Both the position numbers and the translations under genes were made by a program. This document shows, one piece after another, positions 8,281 through 48,013 of a stretch of DNA of 64,000 nt (position 1 is the stretch's first letter; each line of letters opens with the position of its first letter). A model generated the notes under the pieces. It worked only from the letters and a program-made list of their open reading frames with translations. It was not told the origin of the DNA and made no database searches. Source of the DNA: Candidatus Pacearchaeota archaeon (GTDB lineage Archaea; Nanobdellota; Nanobdellia; Pacearchaeales; GW2011-AR1); NCBI GenBank assembly GCA_018304175.1, contig JAGVWT010000003.1, forward strand, positions 1 through 64,000, in the 5' to 3' direction.

Positions 8281-8799
8281 TTATGGCTTCAGCCACCTGA
8301 CTTCGTAATAAGTTATGTCGCCTTCATCGTCGACAATTGCTAAAAGAAGGTTTTTTTTCGTGCTGTGTGCCACACGACTCTTTGCAGAAAACTCGTGCCA
8401 TGATGTTTTATTTGATTCGTAGTCTGTAAAGACAATCCATTTCGCGTGTTCTTCTCCGGGTTTTTTCCCTTTTTCATAGACGCGGAATTCAGCGCCGAAT
8501 TTCAACGCTGTTTTTACAATATAACCTTTATTTCTTAAATCCCTAAATACAGAATATTTAACCTGAATTTTCTTATCATATTTTTGCAGTTTTCTCATCA
8601 AATCTTTTTCTGAAATTTCTCTATTTCCTGAAAAAACCGACATTTTATTTTTTTCAACTAGAAATAATGCTTCTGGGAATGAATATCTTATTTTACCATC
8701 TTTATTCTCTCCAAGGTGGCTTTTTTTCCATAAACTATATGCTTCTGATGAGTTGCTTGAGATTACTTCTCTGAGAAGGTATGATTGGATCTTTTCCAT
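8281..8799 (-). CDS. endA: tRNA-intron endonuclease, single-domain (alpha4-type)
   Basis: VFRDLRNKGYIVKTALKFGAEFRVY, H and K catalytic positions (EEHAKW, KSRVAHSTKK), DITYY; 172 aa. Confidence 0.92.
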   Translation of the reverse strand: MEKIQSYLLREVISSNSSEAYSLWKKSHLGENKDGKIRYSFPEALFLVEKNKMSVFSGNREISEKDLMRKLQKYDKKIQVKYSVFRDLRNKGYIVKTALKFGAEFRVYEKGKKPGEEHAKWIVFTDYESNKTSWHEFSAKSRVAHSTKKNLLLAIVDDEGDITYYEVRWLKP

Positions 8800-8820
8800 A
8801 ATTTTAAAAAAGAAGAGGAA

Positions 8821-8830
8821 TATTTAAAAA
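8821..8830. promoter_or_regulatory. Bidirectional TATA element for endA and the leu leader
   Basis: TATTTAAAAA reads TTTAAAAA (+) and TTTAAATA (-); ATGs at 8852 and 8799 each lie 22 nt from the respective box. Confidence 0.6.
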
Positions 8831-8851
8831 TATGCATTTCTTTAATATTTT

Positions 8852-8914
8852 ATGGAAGCTAGAAGAAAAATTATTTCTGGAGAAAATTCTCTAGCTTTGC
8901 TTCTGTTACTATAA
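8852..8914 (+). CDS. Putative leucine leader peptide MEARRKIISGENSLALLLLL
   Basis: Ends CTA GCT TTG CTT CTG TTA CTA TAA; ATG at the expected TSS; immediately upstream of leuA-leuS. Confidence 0.8.
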   Translation: MEARRKIISGENSLALLLLL

Positions 8915-8945
8915 GATCAATCATTGATTGGTCTTGATACATTTT
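8910..8945 (+). terminator. Putative attenuator hairpin overlapping the leader stop codon
   Basis: aagatcaatc(8913-8922)/gattggtctt(8926-8935) 10-bp stem with 1 GU, extendable by tat/ata over a bulge; followed by CATTTT. Confidence 0.55.
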
Positions 8946-8963
8946 AAACTACTAAAGGTTTCT

Positions 8964-10145
8964 ATGACATACATTAAAATTTTTGATACAACATTAAGGG
9001 ATGGAGAACAAAGTCCTGGAGTCAATCTTTCTAAAGATGAAAAATTAAAAATAGCGAAGCAGCTTGAAAAACTTGGTGTTGATATAATTGAAGCAGGATT
9101 CCCAGTTAGTTCTGAGGAAGATTTTGAAGCAGTAAAACAAATTGCGAAAGAGATAAAAGGACCTATTATTTGTGGATTAGCTCGAGCAGTTAAAGAAGAT
9201 ATTGATATTTGTTGGGAAGCTATTAAATATTCTAAAAAGCCAAGGATTCACACATTTATTGCAACGAGCAAAATTCACATGGATGAGAAACTTAAGAGGT
9301 CACCTCAAGAGGTAATTGAATTAGTTCGAGAAATGGTTGCTTATGCTAAATCACTTTGTAATGATGTTGAATTTTCTTTAGAAGATGCATCAAGAACAGA
9401 GCGAGACTTTATGTGCAAGATAATTCGCGTCGCAATAGAATTTGGTGCAACGACAATAAATATTCCTGATACTGTGGGATATTCTCAACCAGATGAATTT
9501 AAAGATACAATAAAATACATCTTTGATAATCTTGGAGATATAATTTCAAAGAATAAAGTTACGATAAGTTGCCATTGCCATAATGATTTGGGAAATGCAG
9601 TGGCTAATTCTCTTGCAGCGATTAAAGCAGGAGTAACGCAAGTTGAATGCACAATTAATGGTATAGGAGAAAGGGCAGGAAATGCTTCATTGGAAGAGAT
9701 TGTTATGAATTTAATAACAAGAAAGAGCTATTTTAATGTTGAGACCTGTATTGATATATCAAAAATTTTTGAAACATCAAGGATGGTAAGTGACATTGCC
9801 GGAATGGTTGTACAACCAAATAAAGCGATAGTCGGCAAAAATGCTTTTTCGCATGAGTCTGGAATTCATCAAGATGGCATCATAAAAAATCGTTTGACTT
9901 ATGAGATAATAAATCCTAAGGATGTTGGTTGGGTTGGGGAGAGTATTGTTATAGGAAGGCATTCCGGAAAAAGGGCTGTTTCAGAGTTTTTGTCTAAGTC
10001 AGGTTATAATTTTTGCGATGAAGATATTGTGAAAATAACAAGCTCTATTAAAGGTCTGGTCGATAAAAACATAGTTTCTAAGGAAGACATAATTGGAATT
10101 GCCAATAAATTAAAATTGAATGAATCCAAAACAAAACTAATTTAA
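8964..10145 (+). CDS. leuA: 2-isopropylmalate synthase (DRE-TIM), lacking the C-terminal regulatory domain
   Basis: [47 protein letters not shown]; about 393 aa. Confidence 0.85.
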
Positions 10146-10168
10146 ATAATCTATCAATTCTTTATACT

Positions 10169-12619
10169 ATGTCTTATAATTTTAAGAAACTTGAAGCGAA
10201 GTGGCAGCGAAAGTGGGAAAGTAAAAAGATTTTTGAAGTTAAGGAAGATGGAAAAAAGGGAAAATTTTATGTTCTAGAGATGTACCCTTATCCATCTGCC
10301 TCTGGATTGCATATGGGTCATGCATTTAACTATACTATTGGGGATATTCTTGCAAGATTCAAGAGGATGCGTGGATTAAATGTTTTGCATCCAACGGGCT
10401 TTGATTCATTTGGATTGCCAGCAGAAAATGCAGCAATAAAAAATAAGTCTCATCCAAAAATATTTACTGATAAGGCAATTAAAAACTACATAAAGCAGAT
10501 GAAGATGCTTGGATTAAGCTACGACTGGAAAAGAATGCTTATGAGCCATGATCCAGAATATTACAAGTGGAACCAATGGATTTTTTTGAAAATGTTTGAA
10601 CGCGGTTTGGTGTATAGAAAAAAGGCGCCTGTAAATTTCTGCCCAAAATGTGATACTGTTCTAGCAAACGAGCAGGTGCATAATGGCAAGTGTTGGCGTC
10701 ATCAAGATACAGATGTTGTAATAAAAAATCTTGAGCAGTGGTTCATAAAAACAACAAAATATTCAGAGGAACTCCTGAACAAGGTTGACTCATTGGATTG
10801 GCCTGAGAGAATAAAAATCATGCAAAAAAACTGGATTGGAAAGAGTCAAGGAGTTGAGATTGAGTTTGAAATAAATAAAGAGAAATGGAAAATTTTCACG
10901 ACTCGTCCAGATACTTTATTTGGAATTACATTCATGGTTGTAAGTGCGCAACATTCTAAATTAATGGACTTGGTTACGAAAGAACAAAAAAATGAAGTTG
11001 AAAAGTTCTTGGAAAAAATAAAATCAACTAGAGAAAAAGACATTGATGTTTTGGAGAAGGAAGGAGTTTTTACAGGTTCTTATGCTTTACATCCTATAAC
11101 AAAGGAAAAAATCCCAGTTTATGCAGGAAATTTTGTCGTTGCTGATTATGGTTTTGGCATGGTTATGGCTGTTCCTGCGCATGACCAAAGAGACTTTGAT
11201 TTTGCTAAGAAATACAAGTTGCCTATCAAAGAAGTTATTTCTGGAGGAAACGTTAAAAAAGAAGCTTACGTTGGTTTTGGTAAGCTAATAAATTCTAGTG
11301 ATTTCAACGGCTTGACAAGTGATGAATCAAAAGAGCATATTACTAAAACACTTGAATTCAAAAAACTTGGGAGAAGAGTCATACAATACAAATTCCGTGA
11401 TTGGCTTGTTTCTCGTCAGCGTTACTGGGGAACTCCTATTCCAATAATTTATTGCAATAAATGCGGAATTCAAGGTGTTAAAGAAAAAGATTTACCTGTT
11501 AAATTGCCTGAAAAAGTAAAGTTTGGAAAAGGAAATCCCCTGGAAACAAACAAAAAATTCTTTGAGATTAAATGTCCAAAATGCAAAGGCAAGGCACGAA
11601 GAGAAACAGATACTATGGACACTTTTTTTGATTCTTCGTGGTATTACCTAAGGTTTTGTGATTCAAAAAACAAAAAAGAAATTTTTGACAAGAAGAAAAT
11701 CAAATATTGGATGCCTGTTAATTTTTATACAGGAGGGGCAGAGCATGCGTGTATGCACCTGATTTATGCAAGATTTTTCACGAAATTTTTGAGAGATATA
11801 AAACTTTTAGATTTTGATGAGCCTTTTACAAAATTGTTTAATCAAGGAATGGTTCACGGAGAAGACAAATTTGTTATGTCTAAAAGCAGGGGCAATATTG
11901 TAGACCCAACAATTGTTATTAATAAATATGGGGCAGATATCTTAAGATTTTTTTTGGTTAGTACAGGTAGTCCTGATAAAGATTTTATTTGGAGCGAAAA
12001 TGGAATTGATGGAAGTTATAAGTTCGTTAATAAATTATTAGGTTATTTCTTCAAACCGAAATTTGAGAAATCTGATGAAAAAGTTCAAAGCAAAATTAAT
12101 AAAACAGTAAAAGAGGTATCTGCAGATATAGAAAATTTAAAGTACAATTTGGCTATTATAAAGATTAGAAATTTGCTTGATTATTTACAAGGTAAAAAAG
12201 TTGGGAAGAAAGAGTTAGAAATTTATATTAAATTAATTTCTCCATTTGCTCCACATATTGCAGAAGAACTCTGGGAAAGGCTTGGAAACAAGAAATTTAT
12301 TTCCCTTGAAAAATGGCCTGAAGTTGATGAAAGTAAAATAAATGAAAAATTTGAAAAAGAAGAGGAAATTATTGAGAAAACTATAGAAGACATAAATAAT
12401 GTTGTTAAAATTATCAAAGATAAAGGCAAAAACGTTAATAAAATATATTTGTATTCGGTACCAAATGAATTTAATATTTATGTAGATAATTTAACTGAAA
12501 TTGAAAAAAGGACAGGGCTTAGTGCTAAGATTTTTGTAGTTAACGATAAAAGCAAACACGACCCTGAGAACAAATCATCTAAAGCAAAACCAGGAAAACC
12601 GGGAATCTATCTTGAATAG
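10169..12619 (+). CDS. leuS: Leucine--tRNA ligase (bacterial-type core, archaeal-type C-terminus)
   Basis: YPYPS.SGLHMGH, FDSFGLPAENAA, TTRPDTLFG editing domain, DWLVSRQRYWG, VMSKS; C-terminal KAKPGKPGIYLE. Confidence 0.96.
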   Translation: MSYNFKKLEAKWQRKWESKKIFEVKEDGKKGKFYVLEMYPYPSASGLHMGHAFNYTIGDILARFKRMRGLNVLHPTGFDSFGLPAENAAIKNKSHPKIFTDKAIKNYIKQMKMLGLSYDWKRMLMSHDPEYYKWNQWIFLKMFERGLVYRKKAPVNFCPKCDTVLANEQVHNGKCWRHQDTDVVIKNLEQWFIKTTKYSEELLNKVDSLDWPERIKIMQKNWIGKSQGVEIEFEINKEKWKIFTTRPDTLFGITFMVVSAQHSKLMDLVTKEQKNEVEKFLEKIKSTREKDIDVLEKEGVFTGSYALHPITKEKIPVYAGNFVVADYGFGMVMAVPAHDQRDFDFAKKYKLPIKEVISGGNVKKEAYVGFGKLINSSDFNGLTSDESKEHITKTLEFKKLGRRVIQYKFRDWLVSRQRYWGTPIPIIYCNKCGIQGVKEKDLPVKLPEKVKFGKGNPLETNKKFFEIKCPKCKGKARRETDTMDTFFDSSWYYLRFCDSKNKKEIFDKKKIKYWMPVNFYTGGAEHACMHLIYARFFTKFLRDIKLLDFDEPFTKLFNQGMVHGEDKFVMSKSRGNIVDPTIVINKYGADILRFFLVSTGSPDKDFIWSENGIDGSYKFVNKLLGYFFKPKFEKSDEKVQSKINKTVKEVSADIENLKYNLAIIKIRNLLDYLQGKKVGKKELEIYIKLISPFAPHIAEELWERLGNKKFISLEKWPEVDESKINEKFEKEEEIIEKTIEDINNVVKIIKDKGKNVNKIYLYSVPNEFNIYVDNLTEIEKRTGLSAKIFVVNDKSKHDPENKSSKAKPGKPGIYLE

Positions 12620-14141: not shown

Positions 14142-15884
14142 TCATCCCAAAACAGCTTTAATTCTTCTAACTCCTGCTGATGAAGATTCTTCTTTTGTTA
14201 TCTTGAATTTTCCTAATTCAGAAGTATTTTTGACATGCGGTCCTGTGCAAATTTCTTTTGAAAAATCCCCAACTGAATAAACTTTCACAATTTCAGGGTA
14301 TTTCTCTCTGAAGTAAGACAAAGCCCCTGTTTTAATTGCCTCTTTGTAAGGCATTTCTTTGTAAGTTACCTTATGATTCTTTTTTATCTCCCTGTTTACT
14401 AAATCTCCAATTTTTTTTATTTCCTCGTCTGTTAATTTTCTTGGAAAATTAAAATCAAATCTAAGCCTTTCAGGAGTTATGTTGCTTCCCATCTGCTGAA
14501 CCTCTGAACCAAGAATTAATTTCAGTGCTTTGTGAAGCATATGCGTCGCAGTGTGATATTTTGTGCTTTGCTTTGAATTATCAGATAAGCCCGCTACGAA
14601 TTTTCCTTTTGTCGCTGTTCGCGAAAGTTCTTGGTGTTTTTTGAGCTCTTCAAAAAAATCTTTTTTGTCAATTTTTATTTTTCTATTTTTTACTTCTTCT
14701 TCAATCAGTTCTATAGGAAAACCATAAGATTGATACAACAAAAAAGCTTCTTTCCCAGATAATTCTTTTTTGTTTTTTGTCAACTTTTCAAAAATTTTTA
14801 TTCCTTTTTCAATAGTTTCGTTGAATTTTTCTTCTTCTAATTTTAGCGTTTCTAATATCTTATTCTTATTTTTCTTTAGTTCTTTATAATCATTATATAT
14901 TTCAAAAACCGGTTCAGCGACTTTGTAAGCGAAGTTTTTTAGAGCTAAAAATTTTCCAAGCCTTACACATCTTCTAATTAAACGCCTGAGAACATACCCT
15001 TGTCCTGTATTGCTTGGCTGAATTCCATCAGCAATTATAAAAACACTTGCTTTTATGTGGTCAGCAATAATTCTCATTTTTTCTTTATGCTTTGTATAAT
15101 CTTTTTTTGAAAGTTTTTCAATTTCATTTATTATCGGCTTCCAGACTTCTGTCAAATAGTTGTCATCCAATCCATTTAACACTGCGAGAGTCCTTTCAAC
15201 ACCACCGCCGAAGTCAACATTTTTTTGTTTTGCTTCATTATAATTTCCTTTCTCATCTTTGGTGTACTGCATTAAAACATCATTTGCAATTTCAACCCAC
15301 CTTTTATCTTCAGGATTGAAATCTTTTGGTGGTTTTGCTTTTGAAGTCCAGTAAAATTGTTCTGTGTCAGGACCGCAAGGCCCTGCGTTTCCTGCAGGCC
15401 CCCACCAATTATCTTTTTTTGGGAGAAATTTTATTCTGCCTTTAGAAATTCCGAGTGATTCCCAAATTTTTGCAGATTCATCATCTTTTGGAGCATCTTC
15501 ATCTCCTGCAAAACAACTTACAGCATATTTTTCCAAAGGAATTTTCAGAATTTTTGTGTGAAAATCAAAAGTGTATTTTATTGCATCTTCTTTCCAATAA
15601 TCTCCCAAACTCCAATTCCCCAACATCTCAAAAAATGTGTGGTGTGTTTCATCTCCAACTTCATTAATGTCTGTTGTCCTTATGCATTTTTGGACATTAA
15701 CAAGACGTTTTCCAAGGGGATGTTTCTCTCCGAGAAGATATGGGACTAAAGGATGCATTCCTGCTGTCGTGAATAAAACAGTTGGGTCGTTTTCAGGAAT
15801 CAATGAAGCAGAAGGAATAACTTTATGCTTTTTCGATTCGAAAAATTTCAGATATTTTTCTATGAGTTCTTTGCGATTTATCAT
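14142..15884 (-). CDS. alaS: Alanine--tRNA ligase, C-terminally short (no C-Ala domain)
   Basis: FTTAGMHPL, QKCIRT, HHTFFEMLGNWS, HTATHMLH and CTGPHV editing motifs; ends SAGVRRIKAVLG. Confidence 0.95.
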   Translation of the reverse strand: MINRKELIEKYLKFFESKKHKVIPSASLIPENDPTVLFTTAGMHPLVPYLLGEKHPLGKRLVNVQKCIRTTDINEVGDETHHTFFEMLGNWSLGDYWKEDAIKYTFDFHTKILKIPLEKYAVSCFAGDEDAPKDDESAKIWESLGISKGRIKFLPKKDNWWGPAGNAGPCGPDTEQFYWTSKAKPPKDFNPEDKRWVEIANDVLMQYTKDEKGNYNEAKQKNVDFGGGVERTLAVLNGLDDNYLTEVWKPIINEIEKLSKKDYTKHKEKMRIIADHIKASVFIIADGIQPSNTGQGYVLRRLIRRCVRLGKFLALKNFAYKVAEPVFEIYNDYKELKKNKNKILETLKLEEEKFNETIEKGIKIFEKLTKNKKELSGKEAFLLYQSYGFPIELIEEEVKNRKIKIDKKDFFEELKKHQELSRTATKGKFVAGLSDNSKQSTKYHTATHMLHKALKLILGSEVQQMGSNITPERLRFDFNFPRKLTDEEIKKIGDLVNREIKKNHKVTYKEMPYKEAIKTGALSYFREKYPEIVKVYSVGDFSKEICTGPHVKNTSELGKFKITKEESSSAGVRRIKAVLG

Positions 15885-47878: not shown

Positions 47879-47918
47879 CTAAAAACCTTTAAATACGTTT
47901 TTCTTTTTCTCAAATCAT

Positions 47919-48011
47919 GTCCCGGTAGCTCAGCAGGTAGAGCACATGACTGTTAGAATTTTGAAAATTGCAGCGATCATGGGGTCGTAGGTTCGAGTCC
48001 TACCCGGGACG
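47919..48011 (+). tRNA. tRNA-Asn(GTT) with 20-nt 37/38 intron
   Basis: gtcccgg/ccgggac, catga/tcatg stem with CT-GTT-A, clean BHB (ctgt/gcag), TTCGAGT. Confidence 0.93.
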
Positions 48012-48013
48012 TT

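What the first reader, a model, noticed from the sequence alone, without database searches (positions are those of the whole stretch)
8852..8914. Leucine-sensing leader peptide upstream of leuA-leuS: candidate ribosome-mediated attenuation in an archaeon
Seen: a 20-codon ORF absent from the ORF track, with 6 Leu in its last 7 codons. The last five are consecutive and each uses a different codon (TTG CTT CTG TTA CTA). It starts at the predicted TSS and ends 49 nt before leuA, which is followed by leuS. Established: amino-acid-rich leader peptides control the cognate operons in bacteria (enteric leuL, the actinobacterial LEU element ahead of leuA, leaderless poly-Cys sORFs in mycobacteria), and transcription and translation are coupled in archaea. 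To my knowledge, such attenuators are not established in archaea. Inference: stalling on uncharged tRNA-Leu switches on both leucine synthesis and LeuRS, and the codon mix samples several isoacceptors.
Basis: partly seen in the sequence, partly recalled or inferred. Interest (0 to 1): 0.92.

Follow-up and report, generated by a model that had tools for sequence, protein, structure and literature searches.

The report
Leucine-sensing leader peptide in DPANN archaeon
A 20-codon mini-gene ending in five leucine codons opens the messenger of an isopropylmalate-synthase-like gene in a tiny DPANN-type archaeon. Leucine-, isoleucine- and leucine/valine-ending versions precede the matching genes in dozens of relatives, so it is very probably a ribosome-read amino-acid sensor, a control I found published only for bacteria.

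Summary
ORF 8852-8914 ends Ser-Leu-Ala-Leu5-stop and lies 49 nt before a leuA-like gene.

It is not chance. Its ATG sits exactly 29 nt after a perfect TATA box, the spacing this genome uses for leaderless genes. An 11-bp hairpin starts at its stop codon.

The same layout (TATA, leaderless mini-ORF of about 20 codons, cognate-codon run at the C-terminus, hairpin at the stop) recurs across the order and class:
- Leu tails precede leuA.
- Ile tails precede citramalate synthase (cimA, followed by ileS).
- Leu+Val tails precede leuA-ilvB.

Three of its points are not supported:
- leuS has its own TATA at -28, and leuS carries no leader in relatives that lack leuA. The sure target is leuA only.
- No leuB/C/D was found, so leuA is an orphan and "leucine synthesis" is doubtful.
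- No conserved U-tract terminator or antiterminator was found. The output is more likely hairpin opening that affects translation than classical termination.

I found no paper describing such leaders in archaea. The scan has noted sister cases on other genomes (DPANN cimA, Asgard, Thermoplasmata). No expression data could be obtained.

The parts
8820..8833 (.). Shared, near-palindromic TATA region of a bidirectional promoter. TTTAAAAA (8823-8830, + strand) lies at -29 of the uORF ATG. TTTAAATA (reverse complement of 8821-8828) lies at -29 of the endA ATG (8799, - strand).
   Evidence: Sequence. -29 is the dominant TATA position before long ORFs in this genome. A TATA of at least 7/8 lies at -31..-27 of the uORF ATG in 24 of 34 related loci.
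8852..8914 (+). Leaderless leader ORF of 20 codons (P0001). The N-terminal part is hydrophilic and the tail reads Ser-Leu-Ala-Leu-Leu-Leu-Leu-Leu-stop.
   Evidence: Homologous uORFs occur in relatives.
8891..8911 (+). Presumed sensing codons: Leu14 (CTA), Ala15 (GCT), Leu16-20 (TTG CTT CTG TTA CTA). Three of the six Leu codons are rare in this genome (CTA 6.8%, CTG 5.8% of Leu codons).
8912..8936 (+). RNA hairpin that begins with the uORF stop codon: 11-bp stem (2 G-U pairs) and a 3-nt loop. A ribosome with one of the last Leu codons or the stop in its A site would cover the 5' arm.
   Evidence: dG -10.7 kcal/mol and z -3.8 against dinucleotide shuffles. An equivalent hairpin starts within -6..+7 nt of the stop in 32 of 33 related loci. 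Covariation in the cimA class.
8937..8963 (+). Spacer to leuA. It holds a T4 tract (8942-8945) and an SD-like AGGT (8956-8959, -8..-5 of the ATG). There is no TATA at the leaderless distance for leuA.
8964..10145 (+). leuA-like gene, 393 aa. It is a bacterial-type 2-isopropylmalate synthase catalytic core (HMGL-like plus HCS_D2) without the C-terminal LeuA_dimer regulatory domain. It is an orphan: no leuB/C/D was found in the genome. This is the gene that depends on the uORF transcript.
10141..10148 (+). TTTAAATA box at -28 of the leuS ATG, overlapping the leuA stop codon (10143-10145). It is the probable own promoter of leuS.
   Evidence: The same holds for most leuS and ileS genes downstream of leuA or cimA in relatives.
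10169..12619 (+). leuS, bacterial-type LeuRS (816 aa), the only LeuRS found in the assembly. Any link to the leader would be by read-through only.
8281..8799 (-). endA (tRNA-splicing endonuclease), the divergent neighbour. It marks the genome as archaeal and shares the TATA region.

Best explanation
The transcript starts at, or within a base of, the A of the ATG at 8852, so the mRNA is leaderless. The first thing translated is a 20-codon leader peptide whose last seven codons include six Leu codons.

When charged tRNA-Leu is plentiful, the ribosome reaches the stop and leaves. The hairpin that begins at the stop codon (8912-8936) then forms and keeps expression of the downstream leuA-like gene low. 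When charged tRNA-Leu is scarce, the ribosome dwells on the last Leu codons. Its footprint covers the 5' arm, the hairpin stays open, and leuA expression rises.

The most likely output is better access of ribosomes to the leuA start region, as in the translational attenuation of the mycobacterial poly-Cys or cat/erm type. A less likely output is that the stalled ribosome prevents termination or factor-dependent (FttA-like) polarity.

Shown: the anatomy, its conservation, the match between the tail's amino acid and the downstream gene, and the covarying hairpin. Inferred: translation of the uORF, stalling, the direction of the response, and the level (translation or transcription) at which it acts. 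leuS probably runs mainly from its own promoter.
For: (1) Promoter geometry. A perfect TATA lies at -29 of the uORF ATG, the genome's leaderless spacing. The same is seen in 24 of 34 related loci, against 2.4% of all short ORFs in this genome. The synthase ATG has such a TATA in only 3 of 34.

(2) Conservation with cognate specificity.
- In the order, at least 4 Leu occur in the 7 codons before a stop upstream of leuA in 16 of 22 loci (reverse strand 1 of 22).
- At least 4 Ile occur upstream of cimA in 14 of 17 (reverse strand 1 of 17).
- The cimA genes are TIGR00977-like and are followed by IleRS.
- In other orders of the class, Leu+Val tails precede leuA-ilvB, Leu tails precede other leuA genes, and Ile tails precede cimA-like genes.
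- Composition of the last 8 residues: L 0.61 / I 0.11 before leuA; I 0.64 / L 0.01 before cimA; L 0.68 / V 0.28 before leuA-ilvB.
- Control: 158 mostly bacterial leuA upstream regions gave 3 of 158.

(3) Leu positions vary synonymously between loci, and rare codons are enriched (34% against 15% in the adjacent coding sequence).

(4) A hairpin lies at the stop codon. Mean z is -2.44 over 34 loci, with 21 below -2; two control windows average about 0. In the cimA class 81.8% of cells are paired against 26-45% when the partner is slid, and 0 of 500 shuffles reach the covariation score. G-U pairs point to RNA rather than DNA.

(5) Where an SD exists, it lies in or next to the 3' arm in 7 of 10 loci.

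(6) Genus mates without leuA have the same endA-leuS promoter region but no uORF.
Against: - No transcript, ribosome-occupancy or reporter data exist.
- In this locus the SD-like AGGT lies 20 nt beyond the hairpin, so how hairpin opening is turned into output is unclear.
- No conserved terminator U-tract or antiterminator was found.
- The genome lacks the rest of the leucine pathway, so the benefit of inducing leuA is not evident.
- For the actinobacterial LEU element, the authors cite evidence that mutating the Leu codons did not change regulation (PMC1262725). A Leu-run uORF is therefore not proof of stalling control.
- Related loci are not independent samples.
- A Ser codon and an Ala codon are conserved inside the runs of both classes (about 70% of loci). 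Simple codon counting does not explain this.
Confidence: 0.72

Rival explanations
1. The conserved uORF-plus-hairpin region is a cis-regulatory RNA or DNA element read by a trans-acting protein, as was proposed for the actinobacterial LEU element. The Leu or Ile codons would be a by-product of that site, not a ribosomal sensor.
For: Ser and Ala codons are conserved inside the runs (TCT xTA GCT in both classes). The hairpin is conserved. The LEU-element authors cite evidence that mutating its Leu codons did not change regulation.
Against: The Leu class (C/U-rich) and the Ile class (A/U only) share no nucleotide motif beyond TAGCT, yet each matches its gene's amino acid. Run positions vary synonymously. 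Hairpin sequences differ completely between loci while pairing is kept, which argues against a sequence-specific site. The ORF, its ATG at TATA+29 and its stop at the hairpin base are all preserved.
Confidence: 0.1
2. The uORF is only a translational 'starter'. In a genome where initiation is mostly leaderless and SD use is weak, a 5' mini-ORF delivers ribosomes that re-initiate at the SD-poor synthase gene. The hairpin brings the stop and the start together. No amino-acid sensing is involved.
For: SD-like motifs are weak in this genome (25% against 11-16% background) and are absent from most synthase starts. The hairpin's 3' end lies 8-13 nt from the cimA ATG in most Ile-class loci.
Against: This does not explain why the tails are Leu before leuA, Ile before cimA and Leu+Val before leuA-ilvB. 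It also does not explain why the run always sits just before the stop.
Confidence: 0.08
3. The ORF encodes a functional hydrophobic micro-peptide, for example a membrane-associated one.
For: The C-terminal hydrophobic tail is conserved.
Against: The hydrophobic stretch of 7-12 residues is too short to span a membrane. The N-terminal parts are not conserved. The residue identity switches between Leu, Ile and Val with the neighbouring gene, which no peptide function predicts.
Confidence: 0.04
4. The Leu-rich ORF is a chance product of an AT-rich spacer.
For: Leu has six codons, and the scan read very many windows. Such runs occur 50 times in six frames of this genome.
Against: About 0.008 are expected in this spacer. 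This is the only such ORF in the genome with the TATA, the tail and the hairpin together. Homologues occur in more than 50 loci.
Confidence: 0.01

Closest known systems
Mycobacterial leaderless poly-cysteine short ORFs (Ms5788A type; bioRxiv 10.1101/834739)
   Same: Both have a leaderless mini-ORF at the transcription start, consecutive codons of the relevant amino acid, and an operon gene downstream. In the mycobacterial case a stalled ribosome blocks an RNA pairing that otherwise limits translation of that gene, and no terminator is needed.
   Different: That system is bacterial, and its Cys-codon tract itself pairs with the SD. Here a separate hairpin starts at the stop codon, and the SD lies in the hairpin in only some loci. 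The promoter here is an archaeal TATA box, and the amino acids are Leu, Ile or Val.
Enterobacterial leader-peptide transcription attenuators (leuL, ilvL, ivbL, thrL, hisL, pheL; own knowledge)
   Same: Both have a short leader ORF enriched in the codons of the operon's product, placed before the first committed biosynthetic gene. Leu+Val mixtures occur before shared branched-chain operons, and non-cognate residues such as Ala are interspersed.
   Different: No conserved hairpin-plus-U-tract terminator and no competing antiterminator were found. The run sits at the very C-terminus, next to the stop, rather than mid-peptide. The mRNA is leaderless and the transcription machinery is archaeal.
Leader-peptide attenuators of aminoacyl-tRNA synthetase genes (E. 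coli pheM-pheST; predicted Streptomyces leuS and trpS; PMC1262725)
   Same: A cognate-codon leader lies in the neighbourhood of a synthetase gene.
   Different: Here the synthetase has its own TATA and lacks the leader when leuA is absent. The leader belongs to leuA.
E. coli tnaC (own knowledge)
   Same: A ribosome held at the end of a leader ORF masks the RNA immediately after the stop codon and so prevents factor-dependent termination.
   Different: tnaC senses free tryptophan through the nascent peptide and acts on Rho. An archaeal equivalent acting through FttA/aCPSF1 is only a conjecture here.
Actinobacterial LEU element upstream of leuA (PMC1262725)
   Same: Both are a Leu-run uORF before leuA with a structure that touches the SD.
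   Different: The LEU element is a conserved pseudoknot in which the Leu codons pair with the SD. Nothing of that kind is seen here, and no Rfam family matched.

Membership tests
Classical leader-peptide transcription attenuator (trpL/leuL type) | Short translated ORF at the 5' end of the operon transcript | tested here: inconclusive
   The ORF, its ATG at TATA+29 and the lack of a separate promoter for leuA fit this.
Classical leader-peptide transcription attenuator (trpL/leuL type) | Run of codons for the amino acid made by the operon | tested here: met
   6 of the last 7 codons are Leu. The tail's amino acid tracks the gene across Leu, Ile and Leu+Val classes.
Classical leader-peptide transcription attenuator (trpL/leuL type) | Intrinsic terminator (stem plus U-tract) between the leader and the first gene | tested here: not met
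   The hairpin is present, but T5 tracts follow it in only 4 of 33 loci and T4 in 9 of 33, against a genome background of 7% and 17%. In this locus there is only a T4 tract, 5 nt after the stem, although the simple scan flags it as terminator-like.
Classical leader-peptide transcription attenuator (trpL/leuL type) | Mutually exclusive antiterminator pairing | tested here: not met
   RNAalifold and MFE folds with a masked ribosome footprint showed no conserved alternative helix.
Translational attenuation by a leaderless sensory sORF (mycobacterial poly-Cys type; cat/erm logic) | Leaderless sORF with consecutive cognate codons | tested here: met
Translational attenuation by a leaderless sensory sORF (mycobacterial poly-Cys type; cat/erm logic) | RNA structure within reach of the stalled ribosome that sequesters the downstream ribosome-binding site | tested here: inconclusive
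   A hairpin lies at the stop in 32 of 33 loci. The SD lies in or next to the 3' arm in 7 of the 10 loci that have an SD. In this locus the SD is 20 nt further on, and only a weak second stem covers it.
Translational attenuation by a leaderless sensory sORF (mycobacterial poly-Cys type; cat/erm logic) | Expression responds to limitation of the amino acid | not testable with these tools
   Needs a reporter assay or ribosome profiling.
Rfam leader, T-box or LEU-type RNA families | Match to a curated covariance model | tested here: not met
   cmscan of 8750-9050 gave nothing better than E = 0.15, and the hits were unrelated families.
2-isopropylmalate synthase (LeuA), for the downstream gene | HMGL-like catalytic barrel, subdomain and C-terminal Leu-binding regulatory domain, within a leuABCD pathway | tested here: inconclusive
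   The catalytic core scores over the NF002086 cut-off (594 against 532 bits) and covers model positions 6-383 of 516. The regulatory domain is absent. leuB/C/D were not found.

The most novel reading that the evidence does not exclude
Archaea of this DPANN class possess a family of product-matched leader peptides (Leu, Ile, Leu+Val). These would sense tRNA charging through the ribosome on leaderless mRNAs and act through a hairpin that abuts the stop codon, without a bacterial-type terminator/antiterminator switch. That would be ribosome-mediated amino-acid control in a domain where I found none published.

In the most reduced genomes, this one included, the switch governs an orphan first-step enzyme that lacks its feedback domain. 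A more speculative use (about 0.1 on its own) is to feed or override a host cell's leucine pathway.
Probability: 0.7. Interest if true: 0.9.

Novelty: new variant of a known kind. Interest (0 to 1): 0.85.

Why it matters
Leader-peptide attenuation is a textbook bacterial mechanism. Transcription and translation are coupled in archaea too, yet I found no published archaeal case in five full-text searches.

This locus and its relatives give a compact, testable archaeal design: TATA, leaderless 20-codon ORF, cognate run, stop, hairpin. There are three amino-acid versions that serve as natural controls for one another.

The design works without the intrinsic terminators that archaea are not known to use. 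It therefore bears on how ribosome position is converted into gene output in archaea.

It also raises a metabolic puzzle. Genomes of about 0.5 Mb with no leucine or isoleucine pathway keep the regulated first enzyme, usually next to the cognate tRNA synthetase.

Tried and rejected
- The search for related loci in genome contigs and metagenome contigs with LeuA: the hits were almost all bacterial LeuA at 48-55% identity. They served only as a negative control and gave two extra archaeal-looking loci (L197, L124).
I used per-locus z-scores instead.
- Oligo-T terminator idea: not enriched.
- Antiterminator search by folding with the ribosome footprint masked: nothing convincing.
- Rfam: no family matched.
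- The overlapping ORF 8832-8894 has no TATA at -29 and is not conserved, so I rejected it as the leader.
- Other cognate-run leaders in this genome (before ileS, valS, metG): none found.
- A second, archaeal-type LeuRS: not found.
- Structure prediction, complex prediction and the large protein searches were not used, because no claim here depends on them.
- L172 comes from an unpublished genome (G654).

Full report
WHAT IS THERE. The window is contig C14 of a 544-kb, 33% G+C assembly, 88% complete. It is archaeal: a tRNA-splicing endonuclease gene lies at 8281-8799 on the minus strand. Its size and gene content are DPANN-like.

It runs from the ATG at 8852 to the TAA at 8912-8914 and has 20 codons. 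The last eight read Ser-Leu-Ala-Leu-Leu-Leu-Leu-Leu, with six Leu codons of five kinds. Forty-nine nucleotides further on, a 393-aa gene starts at 8964. This gene is the catalytic core of a bacterial-type 2-isopropylmalate synthase (NF002086, 594 bits, model positions 6-383 of 516). It has no LeuA_dimer regulatory domain. A bacterial-type LeuRS gene follows at 10169 (TIGR00396, 930 bits).

IS IT CHANCE? Six-frame counting finds 50 runs of five or more Leu codons in the genome. That predicts about 0.008 for the sense strand of this 165-nt spacer.

The promoter geometry is more telling. In this genome perfect TTTAWAWA boxes pile up exactly 29 nt before the ATG of long ORFs (70 of 506; neighbouring offsets 0-9). 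Leaderless mRNAs are therefore the rule. The uORF ATG has TTTAAAAA at exactly -29 (8823-8830). The same near-palindromic AT block supplies a perfect box at -29 for the divergent endA gene. leuA has no box at that distance.

Among 6539 short ATG ORFs in the genome, 155 have a TATA at -30..-28. Five of these have four or more identical residues among the last seven, and this one alone has more than four (six Leu). It is also the only one of the five followed by a stable hairpin (dG -10.7, against -2.8 or weaker for the other four).

COMPARATIVE TEST. I searched 401 genomes of the same order with PF00682 and found 43 synthase genes in 36 genomes (extra regions fetched). tblastn and NCBIfam split them into two classes:
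- leuA-like genes, nine of them followed by leuS;
- citramalate-synthase-like genes (TIGR00977), almost all followed by IleRS (TIGR00392).

Nearly every leuA of at least 40% identity is preceded by a mini-ORF that ends in a Leu-rich tail, commonly Ser-Leu-Ala-Leu-Leu-(Leu/Ile)-Leu-Leu-stop. Nearly every cimA is preceded by one that ends Ser-Ile-Ile-Ala-Ile-Ile-Ile-stop.

I then used a statistic that ignores ATGs and my own ORF choice: at least four cognate residues in the seven codons before any stop, in any frame, within 200 nt upstream.
- Leu before leuA: 16 of 22 (reverse strand 1 of 22).
- Ile before cimA: 14 of 17 (reverse strand 1 of 17).
- Leu in 158 mostly bacterial leuA upstream regions: 3 of 158. 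One of the three is a high-G+C archaeal-looking locus with the same design.

In a 401-genome sample of the phylum, every genome with a hit belonged to the same class. There:
- Leu+Val tails precede leuA-ilvB operons;
- pure Leu tails precede other leuA genes;
- Ile tails precede cimA-like genes.

So the amino acid of the tail follows the product of the next gene in three variants. At the Leu positions the codons differ freely between loci. Rare Leu codons are over-represented (34% against 15% in the neighbouring coding sequence). The five-different-codons pattern itself is not conserved.

ANATOMY SHARED BY THE FAMILY.
- A TATA box of at least 7/8 lies at -31..-27 of the uORF ATG in 24 of 34 loci.
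- The uORFs are typically 17-29 codons long, and the run lies immediately before the stop.
- A hairpin of 7-12 bp starts within -6..+7 nt of the stop in 32 of 33 loci.
- The gap to the synthase ATG is mostly 27-60 nt.

The 42 nt from the stop fold with a mean z of -2.44 against dinucleotide shuffles, and 21 of 34 lie below -2. Two control windows average -0.15 and -0.06. In this window the stem is 8912-8936: 11 bp, two G-U pairs, dG -10.7, z -3.8.

In the cimA class the helix keeps pairing while its sequence changes. 81.8% of cells are paired against 26-45% when the partner is slid, and 0 of 500 shuffles reach the covariation score. In the leuA class the stems are unrelated in sequence, which is why MAFFT/RNAalifold gave no consensus. 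G-U pairs and this sequence turnover argue for an RNA structure rather than a protein-binding palindrome.

WHAT THE LEADER CONTROLS. The synthase gene is the sure target. It lacks its own TATA in 31 of 34 loci.

The synthetase genes are a different matter. leuS here has a perfect TTTAAATA at -28 that overlaps the leuA stop codon. Most leuS and ileS genes behind leuA or cimA have a box at -27..-29, even where it lies inside the synthase coding region.

The bacterial-type leuS is present in 59 of 61 relatives. In those without leuA, including both genus mates, leuS follows its TATA directly with no uORF, in several cases (one genus mate among them) with what looks like the same divergent endA-type gene upstream as here. 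The uORF-hairpin-leuA unit therefore sits between the old promoter and leuS in this genome. Co-induction of LeuRS could occur only by read-through, and the data do not support it.

THE METABOLIC ODDITY. No LeuB, LeuC or LeuD homologue is found in this genome. Four of five further genomes that carry these modules lack LeuB and LeuC. Of the 36 order genomes with a synthase, only one has an Iso_dh-family gene. These assemblies are 61-92% complete, so absence is not proven. The pattern is nevertheless consistent: the regulated first enzyme is an orphan, here also without its feedback domain. In larger genomes of the class the same kind of leader precedes leuA-ilvB. The reduced genomes thus seem to have kept the switch and the first enzyme only. 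I cannot explain this, and note as speculation that such an enzyme could feed a host's pathway.

MECHANISM. The steps from stalling to output are inferred.

Masking a ribosome footprint on the last Leu codons or on the stop removes the hairpin in silico. A footprint on the first Leu of the run does not. Three observations then point away from termination and towards translation:
- U-tracts after the hairpin are not enriched (T5 in 4 of 33 loci; genome background 7%), and no conserved alternative helix was seen. A bacterial-type terminator/antiterminator switch is therefore not supported.
- Where the synthase has an SD, it lies in or against the 3' arm in 7 of 10 loci.
- In the Ile class the 3' arm ends 8-13 nt before the ATG in most loci.

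This favours control of translation initiation, as in the mycobacterial leaderless poly-Cys ORFs (10.1101/834739).

In this particular locus the SD-like AGGT (8956-8959) lies 20 nt past the stem, and only a weak second stem covers it. The link is therefore open. Protection from factor-dependent termination, in the manner of tnaC, is an alternative that I cannot test.

KNOWN OR NEW. Rfam has no matching family. Five full-text searches found no report of leader-peptide attenuation in archaea, and exact phrases such as 'archaeal leader peptide' returned nothing. The library is open-access only, so this is not proof.

PMC1262725 describes predicted leuS attenuators in Streptomyces and the LEU element before actinobacterial leuA. 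It cites experimental evidence that mutating the Leu codons did not affect that element's regulation. That is a caution against reading every Leu-run uORF as a sensor.

Earlier notes of this scan describe the Ile leader before cimA in other DPANN genomes, and Leu and Ile leaders in Asgard, Thermoplasmata and Bathyarchaeia. I re-derived the DPANN cimA class independently here.

VERDICT. The reading 'Leu-sensing leader peptide' is well supported by comparative evidence. The readings 'switches on LeuRS', 'switches on leucine synthesis' and 'attenuation by termination' are not supported. I rate it a new variant of a known kind. Interest is high, and the decisive tests are experimental.

Noticed in passing
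window 8820-8833: One near-palindromic AT block supplies perfect TATA boxes at -29 for two divergent leaderless starts: endA (ATG 8799, minus strand) and the uORF (ATG 8852). The two ATGs are 53 nt apart.
   Followed up: partly
window 10141-10148: The leuS TATA box (TTTAAATA, -28) contains the leuA stop codon (10143-10145). In relatives the box for ileS often lies inside the cimA coding sequence (for example L043 and L049, perfect box at -29).
   Followed up: partly
window 8964-10145 and the whole genome G000: The LeuA is an orphan and is truncated. It has the catalytic core only, no regulatory domain, and no leuB/C/D in the assembly. The same orphan status holds for leuA or cimA in 35 of 36 order genomes. 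The conserved adjacency of each synthase to its cognate tRNA synthetase (leuA-leuS, cimA-ileS) is unexplained.
   Followed up: partly
uORF tails: window 8888-8896 and loci L012, L020, L022, L028, L047, L049, L056, L057: A Ser codon and an Ala codon (TCT xTA GCT) are conserved inside the Leu runs and the Ile runs alike, in about 70% of loci. ATAGCTAT in the Ile class is an 8-nt palindrome. Plain codon-counting sensing does not explain this.
   Followed up: no
window 10169-12619; relatives: The only LeuRS found is bacterial-type, and this type is present in 59 of 61 relatives. In many relatives the match is split in two (near residue 240 or 360) within open frames of 940-1180 aa. This suggests an inserted domain or an intein.
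   Followed up: no
window 8877-8894: A 7-bp hairpin lies inside the uORF, just before the Leu run, and the simple scan flags it as terminator-like. The 5' end of the mRNA can also pair with the Leu codons. Conservation was not examined.
   Followed up: no
window 47918-48012: ARAGORN calls a 95-nt 'tRNA-Stop' with anticodon TTA. It is probably an intron-containing tRNA that was misread.
   Followed up: no
window 14142-15884 (-): The AlaRS has only 580 aa and ends at the tRNA_SAD domain, so it is a miniaturised synthetase.
   Followed up: no
L051 (G338:C186): Between the Ile leader's hairpin and cimA lies a second 21-codon ORF that overlaps the cimA start. It could be an assembly frameshift or a coupling ORF.
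   Followed up: no
L124 (Candidatus Iainarchaeum MAG, JAUSFL010000036.1): A Leu-rich reading frame with the run in mid-peptide, followed by a long GC-rich hairpin, lies upstream of leuA. The theme may therefore extend to another DPANN lineage.
   Followed up: no
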